DNA from: Cetorhinus maximus
Taxonomy: Eukaryota
DNA: 64,000 nt
Reading direction: 5' to 3'
Assembly: GCF_964194155.1 (NCBI RefSeq)
Contig: NC_135901.1
Coordinates: forward strand, 14,322,001-14,386,000
Under the pieces are notes generated by a model that did not search any database, was not told where the DNA came from, and saw only the letters and a program-made list of their open reading frames with translations. Position numbers and translations under genes: made by a program. Positions within the stretch are counted from its first letter, which is position 1. Every line of letters begins with the position of its first letter. Shown in pieces: positions 12,205-61,696 of this stretch.

Positions 12205-12681
12205 ATGGGAATCCTCTTTGTTTTCACCCTGTGTGTCTGTTTACCCTGTGAGTACCGATCAAACAAAGCGACATTGTGTGGATTTAATATAAAGCTGCCC
12301 GAGTCTATCCCAATTACAGACATTGTCTGGGGTTTTAACCCAGTTCTGTAGTTCGGCTCCAAGGGTCCATTAATCTCTCTCTGTTCAATTTCCAGGCTCT
12401 TTCAGTCAGTCAGTGGTGCAGACCCCGGCAGCGGTGACCAGGAAGGAGTGTCAGTCTCTCACGATCACCTGTGTTTTCTATGGTGGTTTATTCGCTCGTC
12501 CTTTGACGGGCGGGTATTTCTTCAGACAAACCCAGACCGGGACAGAGTGGGAGCGGATCTCCAGCGGGGGGAGATTTGTTGTGTCGGTGAATAAAGCAGA
12601 AAAGACATTTTGGCTGGAAATTCGGGATGTGAGAGTTGAAGACACCGCCACCTATTACTGTAAAGCTGAGTATGACACACA
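12205..12681 (+). CDS. NTCRV: NAR-TCR V segment 1 (leader exon 12205-12247, V exon 12396-12681)
   Basis: Leader MGILFVFTLCVCLP, gtgagt...ttccAG phase-1 intron, then QSVVQTPAAVTRKECQSLTITCVFYGGLFARPLTGGYFFRQ...ISSGGRFVVSVNKAEKTFWLEIRDVRVEDTATYYCKA. VNAR-like (CDR2 deleted) with extra FR1 Cys. RSS CACAGTG-22-ACAAAAACT at 12682-12719. Confidence 0.93.
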
Positions 12682-13045
12682 CACAGTGATGGGCCTCGGC
12701 TTCCCGCGATACAAAAACTCTCACTGCAGATTATCACAGAAACAAATGAAAAACCGGAGTTAATCTGCAGTTAAACCCCCACAGTTCCGCCTCACACCGT
12801 CTGCCCCACAGTCTAGTTTATAATGAGATTAGATTATTGCCGTTAACATCTTGAGTTTTATAAGTGCCGAGTGTGTGCGGATGCTGATGTCTTCCTGAGA
12901 TTGGTGTCAGTGAATGGGGATTGAGAATAACTGATCCCAGTAACAAACCCCTAACACTAGATGTGACCCCGGTCTTACAGGTGGAACAGGGAACCGCAGT
13001 CCCCGCTGTTTAACTAATGTCCCCACATCTCACCAAGTAAGCGGG

Positions 13046-13119
13046 GGATTTTATACTGACTTGTAACACTGTGTGGGTGGATGGGGAAAGTCACAGTGGG
13101 AGAGACCTGAGTAAATACC
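13046..13119 (+). other. NTCRD: NAR-TCR D segment 1 (13074-13091) with 12/12 RSSs
   Basis: GGATTTTAT-12-CACTGTG [TGGGTGGATGGGGAAAGT] CACAGTG-12-GTAAATACC. Confidence 0.88.
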
Positions 13120-13473: not shown

Positions 13474-13526
13474 GTGGGAGACTAAATATCCGGATGGATC
13501 CGGGACGGTGGTGACTGTCACAGCCG
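13474..13526 (+). CDS. NTCRJ: NAR-TCR J segment 1
   Basis: GGTTGTTGT-23-CACTGTG at 13435-13473; WETKYPDGSGTVVTVTA; phase-1 donor G|GTAAG. Confidence 0.92.
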
Positions 13527-16579: not shown

Positions 16580-16885
16580 ATTCCAGTTCCATAATTTCCA
16601 GGAATCCGCCTGAACAAACCTCTGCTGCCGGTGACACCGTTACATTAAGATGTGAATATTCAGGGTTCTGTCCGTTCACAGTACACTGGTATCGTCAGTC
16701 CCCAGGACAGGCTCCGGAATATCTGCTTCAGAGACACACTTCAGGAGAGGAGAATAAAGAAAAGGCTGCCGGGGGGAGAATTTCTGCTTCTATCGATTCT
16801 GCCGAGAAAATCAGCCGGTTAGATATCTCCAAACTACAACTGAGCGACTCCGCTGTGTATTACTGTGACCTGAGTCGCCGCACAG
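16580..16885 (+). CDS. TRDV: Supporting TCR-delta V 1 (leaderless, intact)
   Basis: Acceptor cctccAG, phase-compatible with J1; DSSSIISRNPPEQTSAAGDTVTLRCEYSGFCPFTVHWYRQSPGQAPEYLL...GRISASIDSAEKISRLDISKLQLSDSAVYYCDLSRRT. Extra CDR1 Cys; no leader exon found. Confidence 0.92.
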
Positions 16886-17048
16886 CACAGTGAAACAGAG
16901 CAGGGAGAGAGCCGTACAAAAACCTCAACATGGTGGGATTACAGACACACAGTGATACAGAGCACGGAGAGAGCTGTACAAAAACCTGAACATGGTGGGA
17001 TTACAGACACACAGTGATACAGAGCATGGAGAGAACTGTACAAAACCT
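16886..17048 (+). promoter_or_regulatory. Three tandem 23-RSSs (62-bp period)
   Basis: CACAGTG at 16886, 16948 and 17010, each followed by 23 bp and then ACAAAAACC, ACAAAAACC and ACAAAACCT. Confidence 0.93.
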
Positions 17049-17054
17049 GAACAT

Positions 17055-19480
17055 GGTGCTTGCACACGAACAGGTGAGTGACCTCATCCTGAGTGAGGCA
17101 CGGCCAGAGTCAGTGTGGGTACTGGCAATTTGGTGCACAGTGGGAATTGAACTGGTAAGTCCTTCTCTTTAAGTTCTCTTAATTTTTGTAACTACAGTGG
17201 TCTAGTTAAAGGGTTGGTAAGAGAGCTGATGCAACTGACGGTGTGACAGTTATCTGTCAATCACCTGATGCCTGATTAGGGACTTAATAGGTGTTGATTA
17301 GTATTTGAAGCATAACTAGTGTGAGTCATCTCAGCTCATCTCAGCTCTAATTAAGAAAGAGACAATTAAAAGCACACTACAGTGTGCTTGCACAAGAGCA
17401 GGGGAGAGACCTCATCCTGAGGGAGACACAGCCAGAGTGTGTGTGGCTATTGGCAATTTGGAACAGTGCGAATTCGGCTCAGAGGGGAGGAGGTGCTCTC
17501 TGCATTTTATCTTTGCTATCCAATTTATTAAATCTTCTGAGTGTGGCCTTGCCCTGCTGCAGCAGTAGAGGCTACAAGGGAAAGGAATGACTGGTAAGTA
17601 GTGGATAAGGTCGGGATGTATTTACAACTTTAATCGCTTGTAGTTTAAGGACTTTTTGTGGTTTGTAGTTTGTATAATCTGTAGTAACGAGGATCAGGAA
17701 AGAAGGGCCCGAGGGTAATTGATTTAAAAGGTTTAATTTAAAGGGATATAACATGGCAAGAGAGCTCAATGCCGTCATGTGCTCCTCGTTCTCCATGTAG
17801 GAAACCGGCAACATTTCCAGTGCCCAGAACCAGCATGTGTGCAGAAATTGTGTCCAGCTGCAGCTCCTGGAATCTTGGGTTTCAGAGCTGAAACGGCGGC
17901 TGGGGACACTGTGGAGCACCTGCGAGTCTGAGAGCATCGTGGACAGCACGTTTACAGAGGTGGTCACACAGCAGCTGAAGGGACTTGAGGAAGGAAGGGA
18001 ATGGGTAGTCCCAGGTAATCCAAGAGCAACAGGCAGGGAGTTGAGGAGCCCCCTGGGGTCCCGTTCGCAAATTGGTATTCCATTTTGGAGGCTGATGAAG
18101 GCGCTGCTTCCTCCAGGGAGTGCAAACAGAACCAAGCTTCTGACACCACAAGCAGCCTGTCTGTACAGGAGGGGAGGAAGAGAGGATGAACAATAGTAAT
18201 AGGGGATTCTATAGTCAGGGGGACAGATAGGCGCTATTGTGGCCGTCAACGTGTCTCTAGGACGGTGTGTTGCCTCCCTGGTGCCAGCCTCCGGAATGTC
18301 ACTGAACGCCTGCATGGCATCCTGAAAGGGGAGGGGGATAAATTAGAGGTCATGGTACATGTTGGTACCAATAACTTAGGTAGAAAGGGCGACGATGTCT
18401 TGCATCAAGAAATCAGGGAGTTAGGCAGTAGACTAAAAAGCAGGATCTCTCAGGTTGTAATCTCTGGGTTACTCCCAGTGCCACGTGCTAACAAGACCAG
18501 GAATAGGAGAATAGCGCAGATAAATACGTGGCTTAAGAGTTCGTGCAGGAGGGAGGGTTTTAGATTCCTGGAACACTGGGAATGTTTCTGGGGAAAGTGG
18601 ACCTTTACAAGCCGGATGGTCTACATCTGAACCATAGCGGAACTAACCTCCTTGCGGGCGGGTTTGCCAGTGCTGTTGGAAGTACTTTAAACTAATTCGG
18701 CAGGGGGAGGGGACACACAATGTTAGAAGAATAGGCACGCATCAGAATAAGTAATACATTCAAGTCAGAGGGAGAACCACTGCATTAAGCTTCAAGGGAG
18801 TAAGGCAAGGCTGGATGGCCTCTACTTTAATGCCAGGAATATTACAGGTAAAACAGAAGACTTAAGGGCGAGGGTTGACACGAGGAATTCTGATTTGGTA
18901 GCCATCATTGAGACGTGGTTGAGGGAGAGTCAGGATTGGCAGCTCAACATTCCGGGATATAGGATCTTCAGGCGAGACAGGGGTGAGGGCAAAAGAGGAG
19001 GAGGCGTTGCATTATTAGTTAAAGAGTCTGTTACTGCAGTGAGGAGAGATGCTATCTTGGAGAGGACATCGAATGAAGATTTGTGGGTAGAGTTTAGGAA
19101 TAAAAAAGGGGCAACCACATTATTAGATGTTTCTTATAGGCCCCCAGATAGTCAGCGGGATATTGAGGAGCAAATATGTGCGCAAATTGCGGAAGTATGT
19201 AAAAACAATAACAATAGGATAATTATATTAAGTGATTTCAACTTTCACAACATTAATTGGGATAGACAGAGTGTTAAGGGCTTGGATGGAGTGGATTTCT
19301 TGAAATGTGTACAGGAGAGCTGTTTAGGTCAATATGTAGAGGGTCCAACAAGGGACGGCGCAGTGCTGGACCTAATTCTGGGGAATGAATCCGGACAGGT
19401 GGCTGAGGTGGTGGTGGGGGAGCATTTTATTGATAGCGACCGCAACATGGTACAATTCAAGCTTGTTATGGACAAAGAAA
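17055..19480 (+). mobile_element. CR1 LINE 5' half: putative 5'UTR, disrupted ORF1 (Zn finger + SGNH esterase) and ORF2 APE endonuclease; no RT
   Basis: ORF1 from ATG 17753 (CRNC; IVIGDSIVRG...CCLPGA...VHVGTNN); ORF2 FNARN...VAIIETWL...SDFN...LDLILGN; stops and frameshifts present. Confidence 0.87.
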
Positions 19481-19944
19481 GAGAAATAGTGTCGGGTTGG
19501 TCGCTTGGGATAGTGACCTTCATAAAGAGATGTGCTTCCCCTCACTCCCTCCCCGGAGCGGAAGAAGCTGATCGTCTTCAGAGAACTAATCGGTTCAGAC
19601 GTGAACTCTGGAAGAAATGAGCAGCGGCCCAGCAACCCGCCTCCTTCTATCCGGTGAACAGTATCAATTTCCAGCCAGTTAGGAGCGGGAAAAATAAACA
19701 CGTGATGTAGACCTTGCATATCCATCATTGACTTTAATCAGTCAACATTTTTATCTCTTCACCCGGTTCCTTTCTTCTGTTGTGAGTTGTGTCCCGTTTT
19801 CGTATTGACATTCTCATAGCAAACATGTGTTCTGTTGCACAGCTAAAGCTATTATCCGTCATTCTGGAGATGCAAACAAGTAGCCACAGGACAGTGACCC
19901 AATGACCCAGAGAAAATTTTACACTATTAATCTCGTTGTTCCAG

Positions 19945-53633: not shown

Positions 53634-53974
53634 ATTCCCGTTCCATAATTTCCCGGAATCCACCTCTACAAAACTCCGCTGCCGGTGACACCGTTACTTT
53701 AAGCTGTGGATATTCGGGGTTCTGCACAGTGCACTGGTGCCGTCATTCCCCAAGGACAGGCTTGGGAATACCTGCTCCAGTGACACACCTCAGAAGAGGA
53801 GAATAAAGAAAACGCAGCCGGGGGGAAGAATTTCTGCTTCTATCGATCCTGCCGAGAAGATCATCCGGTTAAGAATCTCCAAACTGCAACTGAGCGACTC
53901 CGCTGTGTATTACTGTGCACTGAGTCGTCGCACAGCACAGTGATACAGAGCACGGTGAGAGCTGTACAAAAACC
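53634..53974 (+). pseudogene. TRDV: Supporting TCR-delta V 4 pseudogene with an intact first 23-RSS
   Basis: 302 nt versus 306: 6-nt CDR1 deletion, two +1 insertions and a TGA. RSS CACAGTG-23-ACAAAAACC at 53936-53974; second heptamer at 53998 has no nonamer. Confidence 0.88.
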
Positions 53975-54299
53975 TGAACACAGTGGCATTACAGACACAC
54001 AGTGATATGGGCACGGAAGGAGTTCAAATTCTTGTACTTTTTCTGTATTAAGTTGAAAGGAACACACACACACACACACACACATACACGCGCACAGAGA
54101 GAGAAGAGCGGTGGGAAAGGGAATCACCTAATCTCCACGAATGTATTTACAATTGACCTTGTAATTTTGTAGCACAGAATAAAGCCGTTAAACCCATCAG
54201 GTTCGCACGTTCCTTCCGGCTCCCCAGAGCCTTTAATATTTTTATATTTCGAGCTGCCTACAATACTCCTGCTAAAATAATTCATTCAATTATCCGTTC

Positions 54300-60620: not shown

Positions 60621-61289
60621 GCCCCTGATTCAATGGTGGAATCGACCAATCATGGTGCTGTGACTGATGGAAAGTGTTGGGGAGCCGTCGATTCCCATGG
60701 GAAAACTTCCATTAGCTTTGTGAAACGTGCATTTAACAATGTTTGTGGGTCGTTCACGCTTCATAAGTGCGGCCGTTTATTTAGATAGGAAGGCCTTATT
60801 TTAACAGGGAGCACTGTCGAGGTGCGCATATTCTCACCCAGTGCAGCGCGGCCCTTGAACACATAGGGGCCTTTCCCAGCTGCGGTAATTGTGGGAGATG
60901 CTGACCTCCATGGAAAGATCATTGGTAGGTTGAATCCAAACCCAAACTCCCCCTCAGCTGGGAGTTCCCGGTCACTTGGTGCAAGAGACTGCGGGTTCTC
61001 TTGGGCGGAGGGAGTTTCTCGTTCGATTCTAGCCCGAGTCCTGGAAATCGCAGGAGATGGTGAAGGTCTCTACGGATTGAACAAAAAAAAGGGAAATAAA
61101 CGAATTGGCTGATACCTGAGGAAAAAGGCGGCAATACATTTACCCTAAATTATGAATTGGTCCATAATCAATGTTTCCAGGAAAAGGGAGATGAGAATGT
61201 GGAATAATTTCATGAACGATATTTGAAGACGAATTGCACAGGAGAGGATATTAAGAATGATCCATGTGTCTGCAATCCCACCATGTTCA

Positions 61290-61390
61290 GGTTTTTGTAC
61301 AGCTAACTCCGTGCTCTGTATCACTGTGTGTCTGCAATCCCACCATGTTCAGGTTTTTGTACAGCTCTCTCCGTGCTCTGTATCACTGTG
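61290..61390 (-). promoter_or_regulatory. Two tandem perfect 23-RSSs (62-bp period)
   Basis: GGTTTTTGT-23-CACTGTG at 61290-61328 and at 61352-61390. Confidence 0.93.
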
Positions 61391-61696
61391 CTGTGCGCCG
61401 AGTTAGGTGACAGTAATACACAGCGGAGTCGCTCAGTTGTAGTTTGGAGATATTTAACCGGCTGATTTTCTCGGCACGATCGATAGAAGCAGAAATTCTT
61501 CCCCCGGCAGCGTTTTCTTTATTCACCTCTCCTGAAGTGTGCCTCTGCAGCAGATATTCCGGAGCCTGTCCTGGGGACTGACGGTACCAGTGTACTGTGT
61601 ACTGACAGAACCCTGAATATTTACATCTTAAAGTAACGGTGTCACCGGCAGCAGAGGTTTGTAGAGGCGGACTCCAGGATATCAGGAACCTTGGAT
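61391..61696 (-). CDS. TRDV: Supporting TCR-delta V 5 (leaderless, intact, inverted)
   Basis: Acceptor cttccAG; DPRFLISWSPPLQTSAAGDTVTLRCKYSGFCQYTVHWYRQSPGQAPEYLL...DSAVYYCHLTRRT; 306 nt. Flank 61.7-63.4 kb is the inverted homolog of the J to supporting-V intron. Confidence 0.92.

What the first reader, a model, noticed from the sequence alone, without database searches (positions are those of the whole stretch)
16886..17048. Tandem arrays of complete 23-RSSs behind every intact supporting TCR-delta V
Seen: a 62-bp unit (CACAGTG-23-ACAAAAACC plus a 23-nt linker T(C/G)AACATGGTGGGATTACAGACA) occurs three times after supporting V1-3 (16886, 29249, 41571; the third nonamer is one A short). It occurs twice, both perfect, after the diverged inverted V5 (61290-61390). 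The pseudogene V4 keeps only RSS1 plus a decayed second unit. Known: V segments normally carry a single RSS. Inference: joining at RSS2 or RSS3 leaves RSS1 in the joint with an in-frame TGA (ACA GCA CAG TGA), which is non-productive but still recombinable. The array could therefore act as a multi-attempt or delay device, a RAG-loading booster, or a decoy that tunes NAR-TCR frequency. I do not know of a description of this arrangement.
Basis: partly seen in the sequence, partly recalled or inferred. Interest (0 to 1): 0.85.

Follow-up and report, generated by a model that had tools for sequence, protein, structure and literature searches.

The report
Repeated recombination signals in shark TCR
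In this shark genome, one family of T-cell receptor gene pieces carries its DNA cut-here signal not once but as a run of up to twelve copies; one inner copy shows the marks of a real cut-and-join, and the second copy is likely kept as a spare target that would give these promoter-less pieces extra chances to rearrange.

Summary
The 62-bp unit (heptamer, 23 spacer, nonamer, 23 linker) follows 93 of 95 leaderless NAR-TCR supporting V-delta copies parsed in this genome as 2-12 RSSs, behind intact (68/69) and broken (25/26) genes alike. These arrays hold 221 of 226 genome-wide tandem-RSS pattern matches. Copy number changes fast, like a minisatellite. RSS1 is strongly conserved, RSS2 moderately, RSS3 onward close to neutral; collapse to one RSS is rarer than a neutral model predicts (weak to moderate support). 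At C24:7.60 Mb one array ends exactly at heptamer 8 and is fused, with a P-like base, to a trimmed IgM D-J: a 12/23-compatible, RAG-type coding joint at an inner RSS, probably germline. Such joins keep RSS1's in-frame TGA, so they are non-productive, but two D-delta and eleven J-delta-type segments offer 12-RSSs for re-cutting. Best reading: an RSS minisatellite whose length drifts, with one spare RSS probably selected as a capture or second-chance target. I found no description in print, but four primary shark TCR-delta papers were unavailable.

The parts
12396..12681 (+). NAR-TCR V exon of cluster 1 (leader exon starts near 12205; single 22-RSS at 12682)
13074..13091 (+). NAR D, 12-RSS on both sides
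13474..13526 (+). NAR J, 23-RSS upstream, phase-1 splice donor
16580..16885 (+). Supporting V-delta 1: leaderless 306-nt exon, open frame, extra CDR1 Cys
16886..16947 (+). Unit 1: RSS1 (perfect heptamer, 23 spacer, perfect nonamer) plus 23-nt linker; TGA in the V frame overlaps the heptamer
16948..17009 (+). Unit 2: RSS2 (perfect) plus linker
17010..17058 (+). Unit 3: perfect heptamer, nonamer one A short, linker cut after 11 nt by a repeat-derived flank
24886..26017 (+). NAR V (24886-25173), D (25567-25581), J (25965-26017) of cluster 2
28943..29248 (+). Supporting V-delta 2
29249..29421 (+). RSS array of V2, identical to that of V1
37248..38379 (+). NAR V (37248-37535), D (37929-37943), J (38327-38379) of cluster 3
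41265..41570 (+). Supporting V-delta 3
41571..41743 (+). RSS array of V3, identical to that of V1
49590..50711 (+). NAR V (49590-49877), D (50260-50276), J (50659-50711) of cluster 4
53634..53935 (+). Supporting V-delta 4, frameshifted pseudogene (302 nt)
53936..54017 (+). V4 RSS1, linker and a second heptamer with decayed spacer and no nonamer
61391..61696 (-). Supporting-type V-delta 5: open frame, no NAR V-D-J within about 8 kb upstream
61265..61390 (-). Two-unit RSS array of V5, both RSSs perfect

Best explanation
This is a 62-bp minisatellite made of whole 23-RSSs behind the leaderless supporting V-delta family; its length drifts, an inner RSS shows a RAG-type joint, and the second RSS is likely kept by selection as a spare target that would let a promoter-less V be captured and then re-cut at RSS1. 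Shown: family-wide, family-specific arrays of 1-12 RSSs; fast copy-number change; conservation of heptamer and nonamer falling from RSS1 to RSS2 to RSS3+; one coding joint at RSS8; a stop codon that makes every join beyond RSS1 non-productive; two D-delta and eleven J-delta-type segments with 12-RSSs. Inferred: a single origin by tandem duplication at the CACA microhomology between heptamer and ancestral flank; gain and loss by slippage or unequal exchange; RAG engaging any RSS in the run, so that a first join at an outer RSS brings the V next to D-J-C delta with RSS1 still intact and a second join to a remaining 12-RSS makes the productive chain. Units beyond the second are mostly passengers.
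For: 93 of 95 copies have 2 or more RSSs; 221 of 226 genome-wide tandem matches lie in these arrays; a pattern for other families gave 1 hit, a lone heptamer with no nonamer, although 260 V-type ends carry a perfect 23-RSS and 55 NAR V ends a 22-RSS. 20 of 45 identical-V pairs differ in RSS number. Parsimony changes, signal versus spacer per site: RSS1 0.09, RSS2 0.37 (intact V 0.22, broken 0.45), RSS3 0.70, RSS4 0.89, last 0.91; unit 2 shares only 5 of 80 unit-1 spacer variants, so it is not simply recopied from RSS1. Neutral birth-death predicts 34-50% of tips at one RSS, against 2 of 94 seen; a penalty on moves to one RSS improves fit at p 0.002-0.08 over four model settings. Joint at C24:7600017: untrimmed array end at the heptamer-8 position, one P-like base, IgM D-J trimmed by 5 from its 12-RSS, then C-mu exons. 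A species with fixed V differences from all 74 full-length G000 paralogs has a contig going back 63 bases and a loose end with another unit. Spare 12-RSSs.
Against: No somatic V-to-D-delta joint at an inner RSS, and no second join, was seen; the only joint is to IgM and is a single copy, with no reciprocal signal joint. RSS2 statistics are inflated by shared ancestry (one five-change spacer block recurs on several branches), by shifting unit positions and, by an alignment artefact at one linker site. RSS2 also looks conserved behind broken Vs (0.45, p 0.013), which recent breakage or a mutational cause could explain. The floor at two RSSs is model-dependent (p 0.08 in one of four settings) and could come from ectopic gene conversion or slower slippage in short arrays. 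L044 is intact with one RSS. Intact and broken Vs differ little in array length (median 5 vs 4.5, p 0.08). Unplaced contigs may be second haplotypes; there are only 35 lineages at 3% V divergence.
Confidence: 0.45

Rival explanations
1. A tolerated, neutral minisatellite: one ancestral slip duplicated the RSS, the array hitchhiked through all later duplications of the V family, and only RSS1 matters. Inner RSSs are cut now and then at small cost.
For: RSS3+ signals near neutral; arrays behind 25 of 26 broken Vs and behind orphan V5; fast unit gain and loss; several ancestral-type flanks begin with CACA, which gives a simple slippage origin; all copies descend from one ancestor, so family-wide presence is one event.
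Against: RSS2 heptamer and nonamer are under-mutated, more so behind intact Vs, without sharing RSS1 spacer variants; few lineages fell to one RSS; the array persists in a diverged species; 279 of 385 extra RSSs still look cleavable though their use wastes alleles.
Confidence: 0.33
2. A decoy or brake: extra RSSs soak up D-J partners in dead-end joins, like deltaRec or the kappa-deleting element, lowering NAR-TCR output or pushing cells toward alpha rearrangement.
For: Every join beyond RSS1 is non-productive; an inner RSS was used once; with a median of 5 RSSs random choice would make most first joins dead.
Against: A dose-tuned decoy predicts constraint on all units and on array length; RSS3+ drift and length varies 3-12 within one V clade. 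RSS1 stays re-cuttable, which a true deleting element would avoid.
Confidence: 0.1
3. A loading platform: the extra nonamers and heptamers bind RAG or shift nucleosomes next to RSS1 of a V without its own promoter, raising cutting at RSS1 while they themselves are rarely cut.
For: Arrays are confined to the leaderless family; constraint falls with distance from RSS1; 287 of 425 non-terminal units are 62 bp, close to six helical turns (inference).
Against: The CAC needed for cutting is conserved in RSS2 too (3 changes), and RSS8 was cut. 25 units of 50 bp and 7 of 54 bp break the phasing.
Confidence: 0.12

Closest known systems
NAR-TCR cluster (NAR V-D-J plus leaderless supporting V-delta) of cartilaginous fish
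   Same: Same gene order and hallmarks: NAR V with leader, A-B loop Cys and no WYRK Trp; supporting V without leader, with CDR1 Cys (features from passages of PMC1845163; sequence).
   Different: The passages seen mention no repeated RSS; here about 95 copies spread over 24 Mb and unplaced contigs, nearly all with RSS arrays.
Alternative RSSs upstream of mouse TRBJ1-2 and TRBJ1-7 (PMC6857471; abstract and first part of section 10 read)
   Same: Cutting at a second RSS a few tens of bases away leaves the gene's own RSS in the coding joint, with P nucleotides as evidence of RAG.
   Different: There the alternative RSSs are single, cryptic and weak (under 0.1% of TRBJ1-2 joins); here they are tandem near-consensus copies of the true RSS, up to 12, on a whole V family.
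Germline-joined shark Ig genes (PMC2193156; passages)
   Same: RAG-type joints with hairpin marks fixed in the germline; this genome has VD-DJ (4 copies) and VDJ (2 copies) IgM joints in the same IgM family.
   Different: The joint here links a non-coding linker of a TCR V array to an IgM D-J, TCR V to Ig J, the reverse of the IgH V to TCR-delta D-J trans-rearrangements named in PMC3457774 and PMC12227049 passages.
Successive J-alpha rearrangement (receptor editing; PMC5931798 passages) and VH replacement (recalled)
   Same: A failed join can be replaced by a second RAG event.
   Different: Editing uses new V and J segments and VH replacement a cryptic heptamer inside V; here the spare sites are full RSSs behind the same V and the first join is always dead.
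deltaRec and kappa-deleting element (recalled, no call)
   Same: 23-RSSs with a non-coding flank whose use gives a non-productive locus.
   Different: Those are single stand-alone elements with set partners; these are repeats attached to coding Vs and leave RSS1 usable.

Membership tests
NAR-TCR supporting V-delta | No leader exon; splice acceptor in phase with NAR J | tested here: met
   0 leader-like exons between NAR J and V1; 306-nt exon after AG, phase-1 J donor
NAR-TCR supporting V-delta | Extra Cys in CDR1 | tested here: met
   SGFC in V1-V3 and V5; feature named in PMC1845163
NAR-TCR supporting V-delta | NAR V-D-J directly upstream | tested here: met
   V1-V4; NAR V upstream in 38 of 38 loci fetched with long upstream flanks; not met for V5
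NAR-TCR supporting V-delta | Lies in the TCR alpha/delta locus with D-J-C delta | tested here: met
   D-delta about 40 and 60 kb from the window start, J-delta, C-delta-like exon and J-alpha run beyond
NAR-TCR supporting V-delta | Expressed as a doubly rearranged NAR V - V-delta - C-delta chain | not testable with these tools
   Only short assembled contigs were available
Functional 23-RSS (extra units) | CAC heptamer, 23 spacer, near-consensus nonamer | tested here: met
   279 of 385 extra RSSs pass (CAC intact, at most 1 mismatch each), 179 perfect; RSS1 95 of 95 pass, 86 perfect
Functional 23-RSS (extra units) | Cut at the heptamer edge and joined to a 12-RSS partner | tested here: met
   One case, RSS8 to IgM D-J
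Functional 23-RSS (extra units) | Used in thymocytes with D-delta or J-delta | not testable with these tools
   No raw thymic reads; none among loose ends listed
Minisatellite (VNTR) | Head-to-tail units of 10-100 bp with variable copy number among close copies | tested here: met
   1-12 RSSs; 20 of 45 identical-V pairs differ
Minisatellite (VNTR) | Homogenisation within each array | tested here: inconclusive
   4.72 differences per 39 nt within arrays vs 5.04 between lineages
Deleting element (deltaRec or Kde type) | Stand-alone non-coding RSS element | tested here: not met
   221 of 226 tandem matches sit directly behind supporting Vs; 5 not traced
Deleting element (deltaRec or Kde type) | Programmed join that inactivates the locus | not testable with these tools
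   Needs thymic joints
VH-replacement cryptic RSS | Heptamer embedded in V framework 3 | tested here: not met
   Extra sites are full RSSs downstream of the V

The most novel reading that the evidence does not exclude
Sharks built a two-step ratchet into NAR-TCR assembly: a selected run of spare RSSs lets a promoter-less V, up to 14 Mb away, dock at the delta locus through a deliberately dead first join, then finish by re-cutting at RSS1; the same arrays act as hot spots for germline RAG deletions that fuse TCR and IgM clusters.
Probability: 0.27. Interest if true: 0.88.

Novelty: new variant of a known kind. Interest (0 to 1): 0.66.

Why it matters
V segments are taken to carry one RSS, since a second one outside it can only give dead joins. 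A whole V family with 1-12 tandem RSSs is a natural dose series for how RAG chooses among adjacent signals (nearest the coding end, first met, or random) and for whether same-V re-cutting rescues failed joins. It bears on how sharks make NAR-TCR, which needs two in-frame rearrangements, at useful frequency. The joint at RSS8 also records RAG deleting across clusters and fusing a TCR V array to IgM, a route for reshaping antigen receptor loci in the germline.

Tried and rejected
Chance: rejected (0 control matches). Local duplication only: rejected. Linker as a D segment or two-way RSS: no 12-RSS or reversed nonamer 5' of it in the window scan. Rescue by splicing: the heptamer GT would end the exon in phase 2 while J donors are phase 1, and the good donor near 17074 lies after the stop (sequence, inference). 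Strict D-delta pattern: 0 hits; D found by reading the region. Signal joint of an array RSS: 0 hits. An unjoined twin of the fused IgM cluster: none; the four VD-DJ paralogs are 93.5-95.6% identical over about 9 kb and C715 does not start at the break. The joint in four other DNA runs: not among 31 listed pieces, 215 not shown, so no verdict. Somatic joins in RNA-guess runs: none among 18 listed loose ends, 10 not shown; contig depth cannot rank parts, so the drop in cover after the V end is not used. Run X6 (organism B) carries loose ends letter-identical to G000 flanks and is not counted as an independent species. Protein search gave 1 hit, an elephant shark Ig-like protein at 50%, no genomic context. 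Earlier findings: none. Paper search returned unrelated uses of 'RSS'. The first distinct-allele test (RSS1 3 vs 42, p 0.001; inner 28 vs 87, p 0.41) saturates and was replaced.

Full report
1. Observation. The window holds four NAR V-D-J clusters, each followed about 3 kb later by a leaderless V-delta exon, plus a fifth such V on the minus strand. Behind V1 the 62-bp unit starts at 16886 and 16948 with perfect heptamer and nonamer, and at 17010 with a nonamer one A short (TRF 2.8 copies). V2 and V3 repeat this letter for letter because they lie in a 12.4-kb triplication. V4 is frameshifted and has one RSS plus a second heptamer; V5 has two perfect RSSs, an open frame, and no NAR V, D or J within about 8 kb upstream.

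2. Census. A DNA search with V plus array gave 40 scored paralogs, all with arrays, but that query favours arrays. A V-end pattern independent of the array gave 72 places. I fetched those not yet held, eight found by the tandem pattern, and 20 further stretches, mostly beside unmatched NAR Vs, of which 12 gave new copies, 1 was V5 again and 7 held no V end. Of 95 parsed copies, 93 have 2-12 nonamer-bearing RSSs (480 in all); 68 of 69 intact and 25 of 26 broken copies have two or more. The singles are L044 (intact) and V4. Some unplaced contigs may be second haplotypes; the copies fall into 35 lineages at 3% V divergence, 10.9% apart on average.

3. Specificity. A tandem-RSS pattern matches 226 times in 4 Gb, control 0; 221 matches lie in the 95 arrays. 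A version that excludes this family's flank (it misses other Vs with T after the nonamer) matched once, a lone heptamer. The genome has 260 V-type ends with a perfect 23-RSS (100 listed) and 55 NAR V ends. So the array belongs to the supporting family.

4. Age. All lineages share it, so it predates their radiation. In run X18 (organism D, RNA by guess) V contigs carry letters at 16717, 16777, 16767 and 16653 found in none of 74 full-length G000 paralogs; one contig goes back 63 bases at 16997 and a loose end continues with a shorter linker, a heptamer-like and a spacer-like stretch. That is a second, diverged species with an array; how distant is unknown. Four DNA runs labelled organisms A and B also hold tandem units but may be the same or a very close species.

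5. Dynamics and selection. 20 of 45 pairs with identical V differ in RSS number. Per-site change in heptamer plus nonamer relative to spacer falls in a gradient: on the V tree RSS1 0.09, RSS2 0.37, RSS3 0.70, RSS4 0.89, last 0.91 (94 copies, one contig-edge copy dropped); by lineage representatives 0.08, 0.25, 0.75; by spanning tree 0.19, 0.32, 0.87. RSS2 behind intact Vs scores 0.22, behind broken Vs 0.45. Unit 2 shares 5 of 80 unit-1 spacer variants, so it is not being recopied from RSS1. The p values overstate the case because changes are shared by descent and unit positions shift. A neutral birth-death model predicts 34-50% of tips at one RSS against 2 of 94; a penalty on moves to one RSS fits better at p 0.025, 0.003, 0.08 and 0.002 in four settings. 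Conversion between paralogs could mimic this. Reading: RSS1 essential, RSS2 probably constrained, the rest drifting.

6. An inner RSS was cut. In L039 (C24:7.60 Mb) homology to three paralogous arrays ends at base 7600017, exactly where a perfect heptamer 8 follows in the closest paralog (99.8% over 10 kb). Next come one base complementary to the last linker base and an IgM D2-J joint lacking 5 bases, then C-mu exons. Four paralogous IgM clusters show that D-J with its 12-RSS intact. Both breaks at RSS edges, 23 with 12, with a P-like base, is the RAG coding-joint signature (criteria as in PMC6857471 section 10 and PMC2193156 passages). In paralogous blocks an IgM cluster lies 140-145 kb downstream of this V type in the same orientation, so a cis deletion is the simplest path (inference). 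It is the only one of 95 arrays ending in a J and single copy. No unjoined twin of that IgM cluster is in the assembly and the family has other duplicated germline joints, which favours germline (my estimate 75%) over a lymphocyte read; other runs gave no verdict. Either way RAG cut an inner RSS in vivo.

7. Consequence. The V frame stops in heptamer 1 in 95 of 95 copies, so joins beyond RSS1 are dead but keep RSS1. The delta locus starts about 40 kb from the window on the minus strand: D plus 2 J, then D plus 9 J-type segments (7 with FGxG in the first 69 bases), then a C-delta-like exon. Spare 12-RSSs therefore exist for a second join. This permits the multi-attempt model; it does not show it. 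V1-V4 would join by inversion, V5 by deletion.

8. Mechanism. Most likely (0.45): a minisatellite of RSSs, born once at a CACA microhomology (inference), free to drift in length, with one spare RSS likely selected because a V without its own promoter gains from an extra target and can be re-cut at RSS1. Rivals: neutral passenger (0.33), loading platform (0.12), decoy (0.10).

9. Prior work. The genes are known NAR-TCR parts (PMC1845163, PMC3457774, PMC12227049: passages only). Retention of an RSS after use of a neighbouring cryptic RSS is known at low frequency in mouse TRBJ (PMC6857471: abstract and first part of section 10). Germline RAG joints in sharks are known (PMC2193156: passages). PMC5931798 and PMC9248892 (passages) had nothing on tandem RSSs. 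Searches (listings) showed no description of RSS arrays behind V genes. Criscitiello 2006 and 2010, Deiss 2019 and Ott 2021 were not held, so their figures or supplements may mention it. deltaRec, Kde and VH replacement are recalled, not read.

10. Verdict. Real, family-wide, apparently undescribed, with direct evidence of one inner cut and moderate evidence that a second RSS is selected; function untested. New variant of a known kind; interest 0.66.

Noticed in passing
G000:C24:14.05-14.29 Mb (L113-L122): J-alpha run, C-delta-like exon, nine J-delta-type segments and D-delta lie on the minus strand in the middle of a 24-Mb region with V genes on both sides; a second identical D-delta with two more J lies 20 kb upstream, with IgH-like V genes between.
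   Followed up: partly
G000:C24 below 14.05 Mb: 14 of 35 listed supporting V ends beyond C-alpha are on the minus strand; if the assembly orientation is right their coding joints with D-delta would fall on an excised circle (inference).
   Followed up: no
L094-L097, L098-L099: IgM clusters with germline VD and DJ joints (4 copies) and the fully joined VDJ form (2 copies); the same DJ 12-RSS was used once by its own VD and once by the V-delta array.
   Followed up: yes
L023, L032, L034, L040, L053, L065a: One V clade has a non-consensus RSS1 heptamer (one mismatch at position 5), mostly followed by a perfect RSS2, with arrays of 3-12 RSSs; a natural test of competition between RSS1 and RSS2.
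   Followed up: no
L042, L046, L049, L054-L056, L058 and others: 25 units are 50 bp, lacking 12 linker bases that end exactly at the next heptamer; either a slip on a 2-base microhomology or an old RAG open-and-shut joint.
   Followed up: no
run X19 (organism E) on window 16982-17058: A 90-base contig matching the repeat unit has depth 586 while the V contig has 4.85; it may be a multi-copy array or the unit sitting elsewhere in that species.
   Followed up: no
window 17059-19620 and copies at +12.4 kb steps: The arrays of V1-V3 end in a repeat found with many different flanks in other runs, followed by broken LINE-like ORFs (esterase-like and endonuclease-like, recalled resemblance).
   Followed up: partly
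window 4366-4668 (-), about 11540-11790 (-), 32360-32660 (+): Other V-type remnants with single, weaker RSSs and no array.
   Followed up: no
window 12682, 13073-13092, 13473: NAR segments use an IgH-like signal order: V 22, D 12 and 12, J 23, with a single D per cluster.
   Followed up: partly
L041 (G000:C33:1257044-1257134): A V pseudogene of another family with one RSS and a lone heptamer 45 bases on, no nonamer; the only non-family hit of the tandem pattern.
   Followed up: yes
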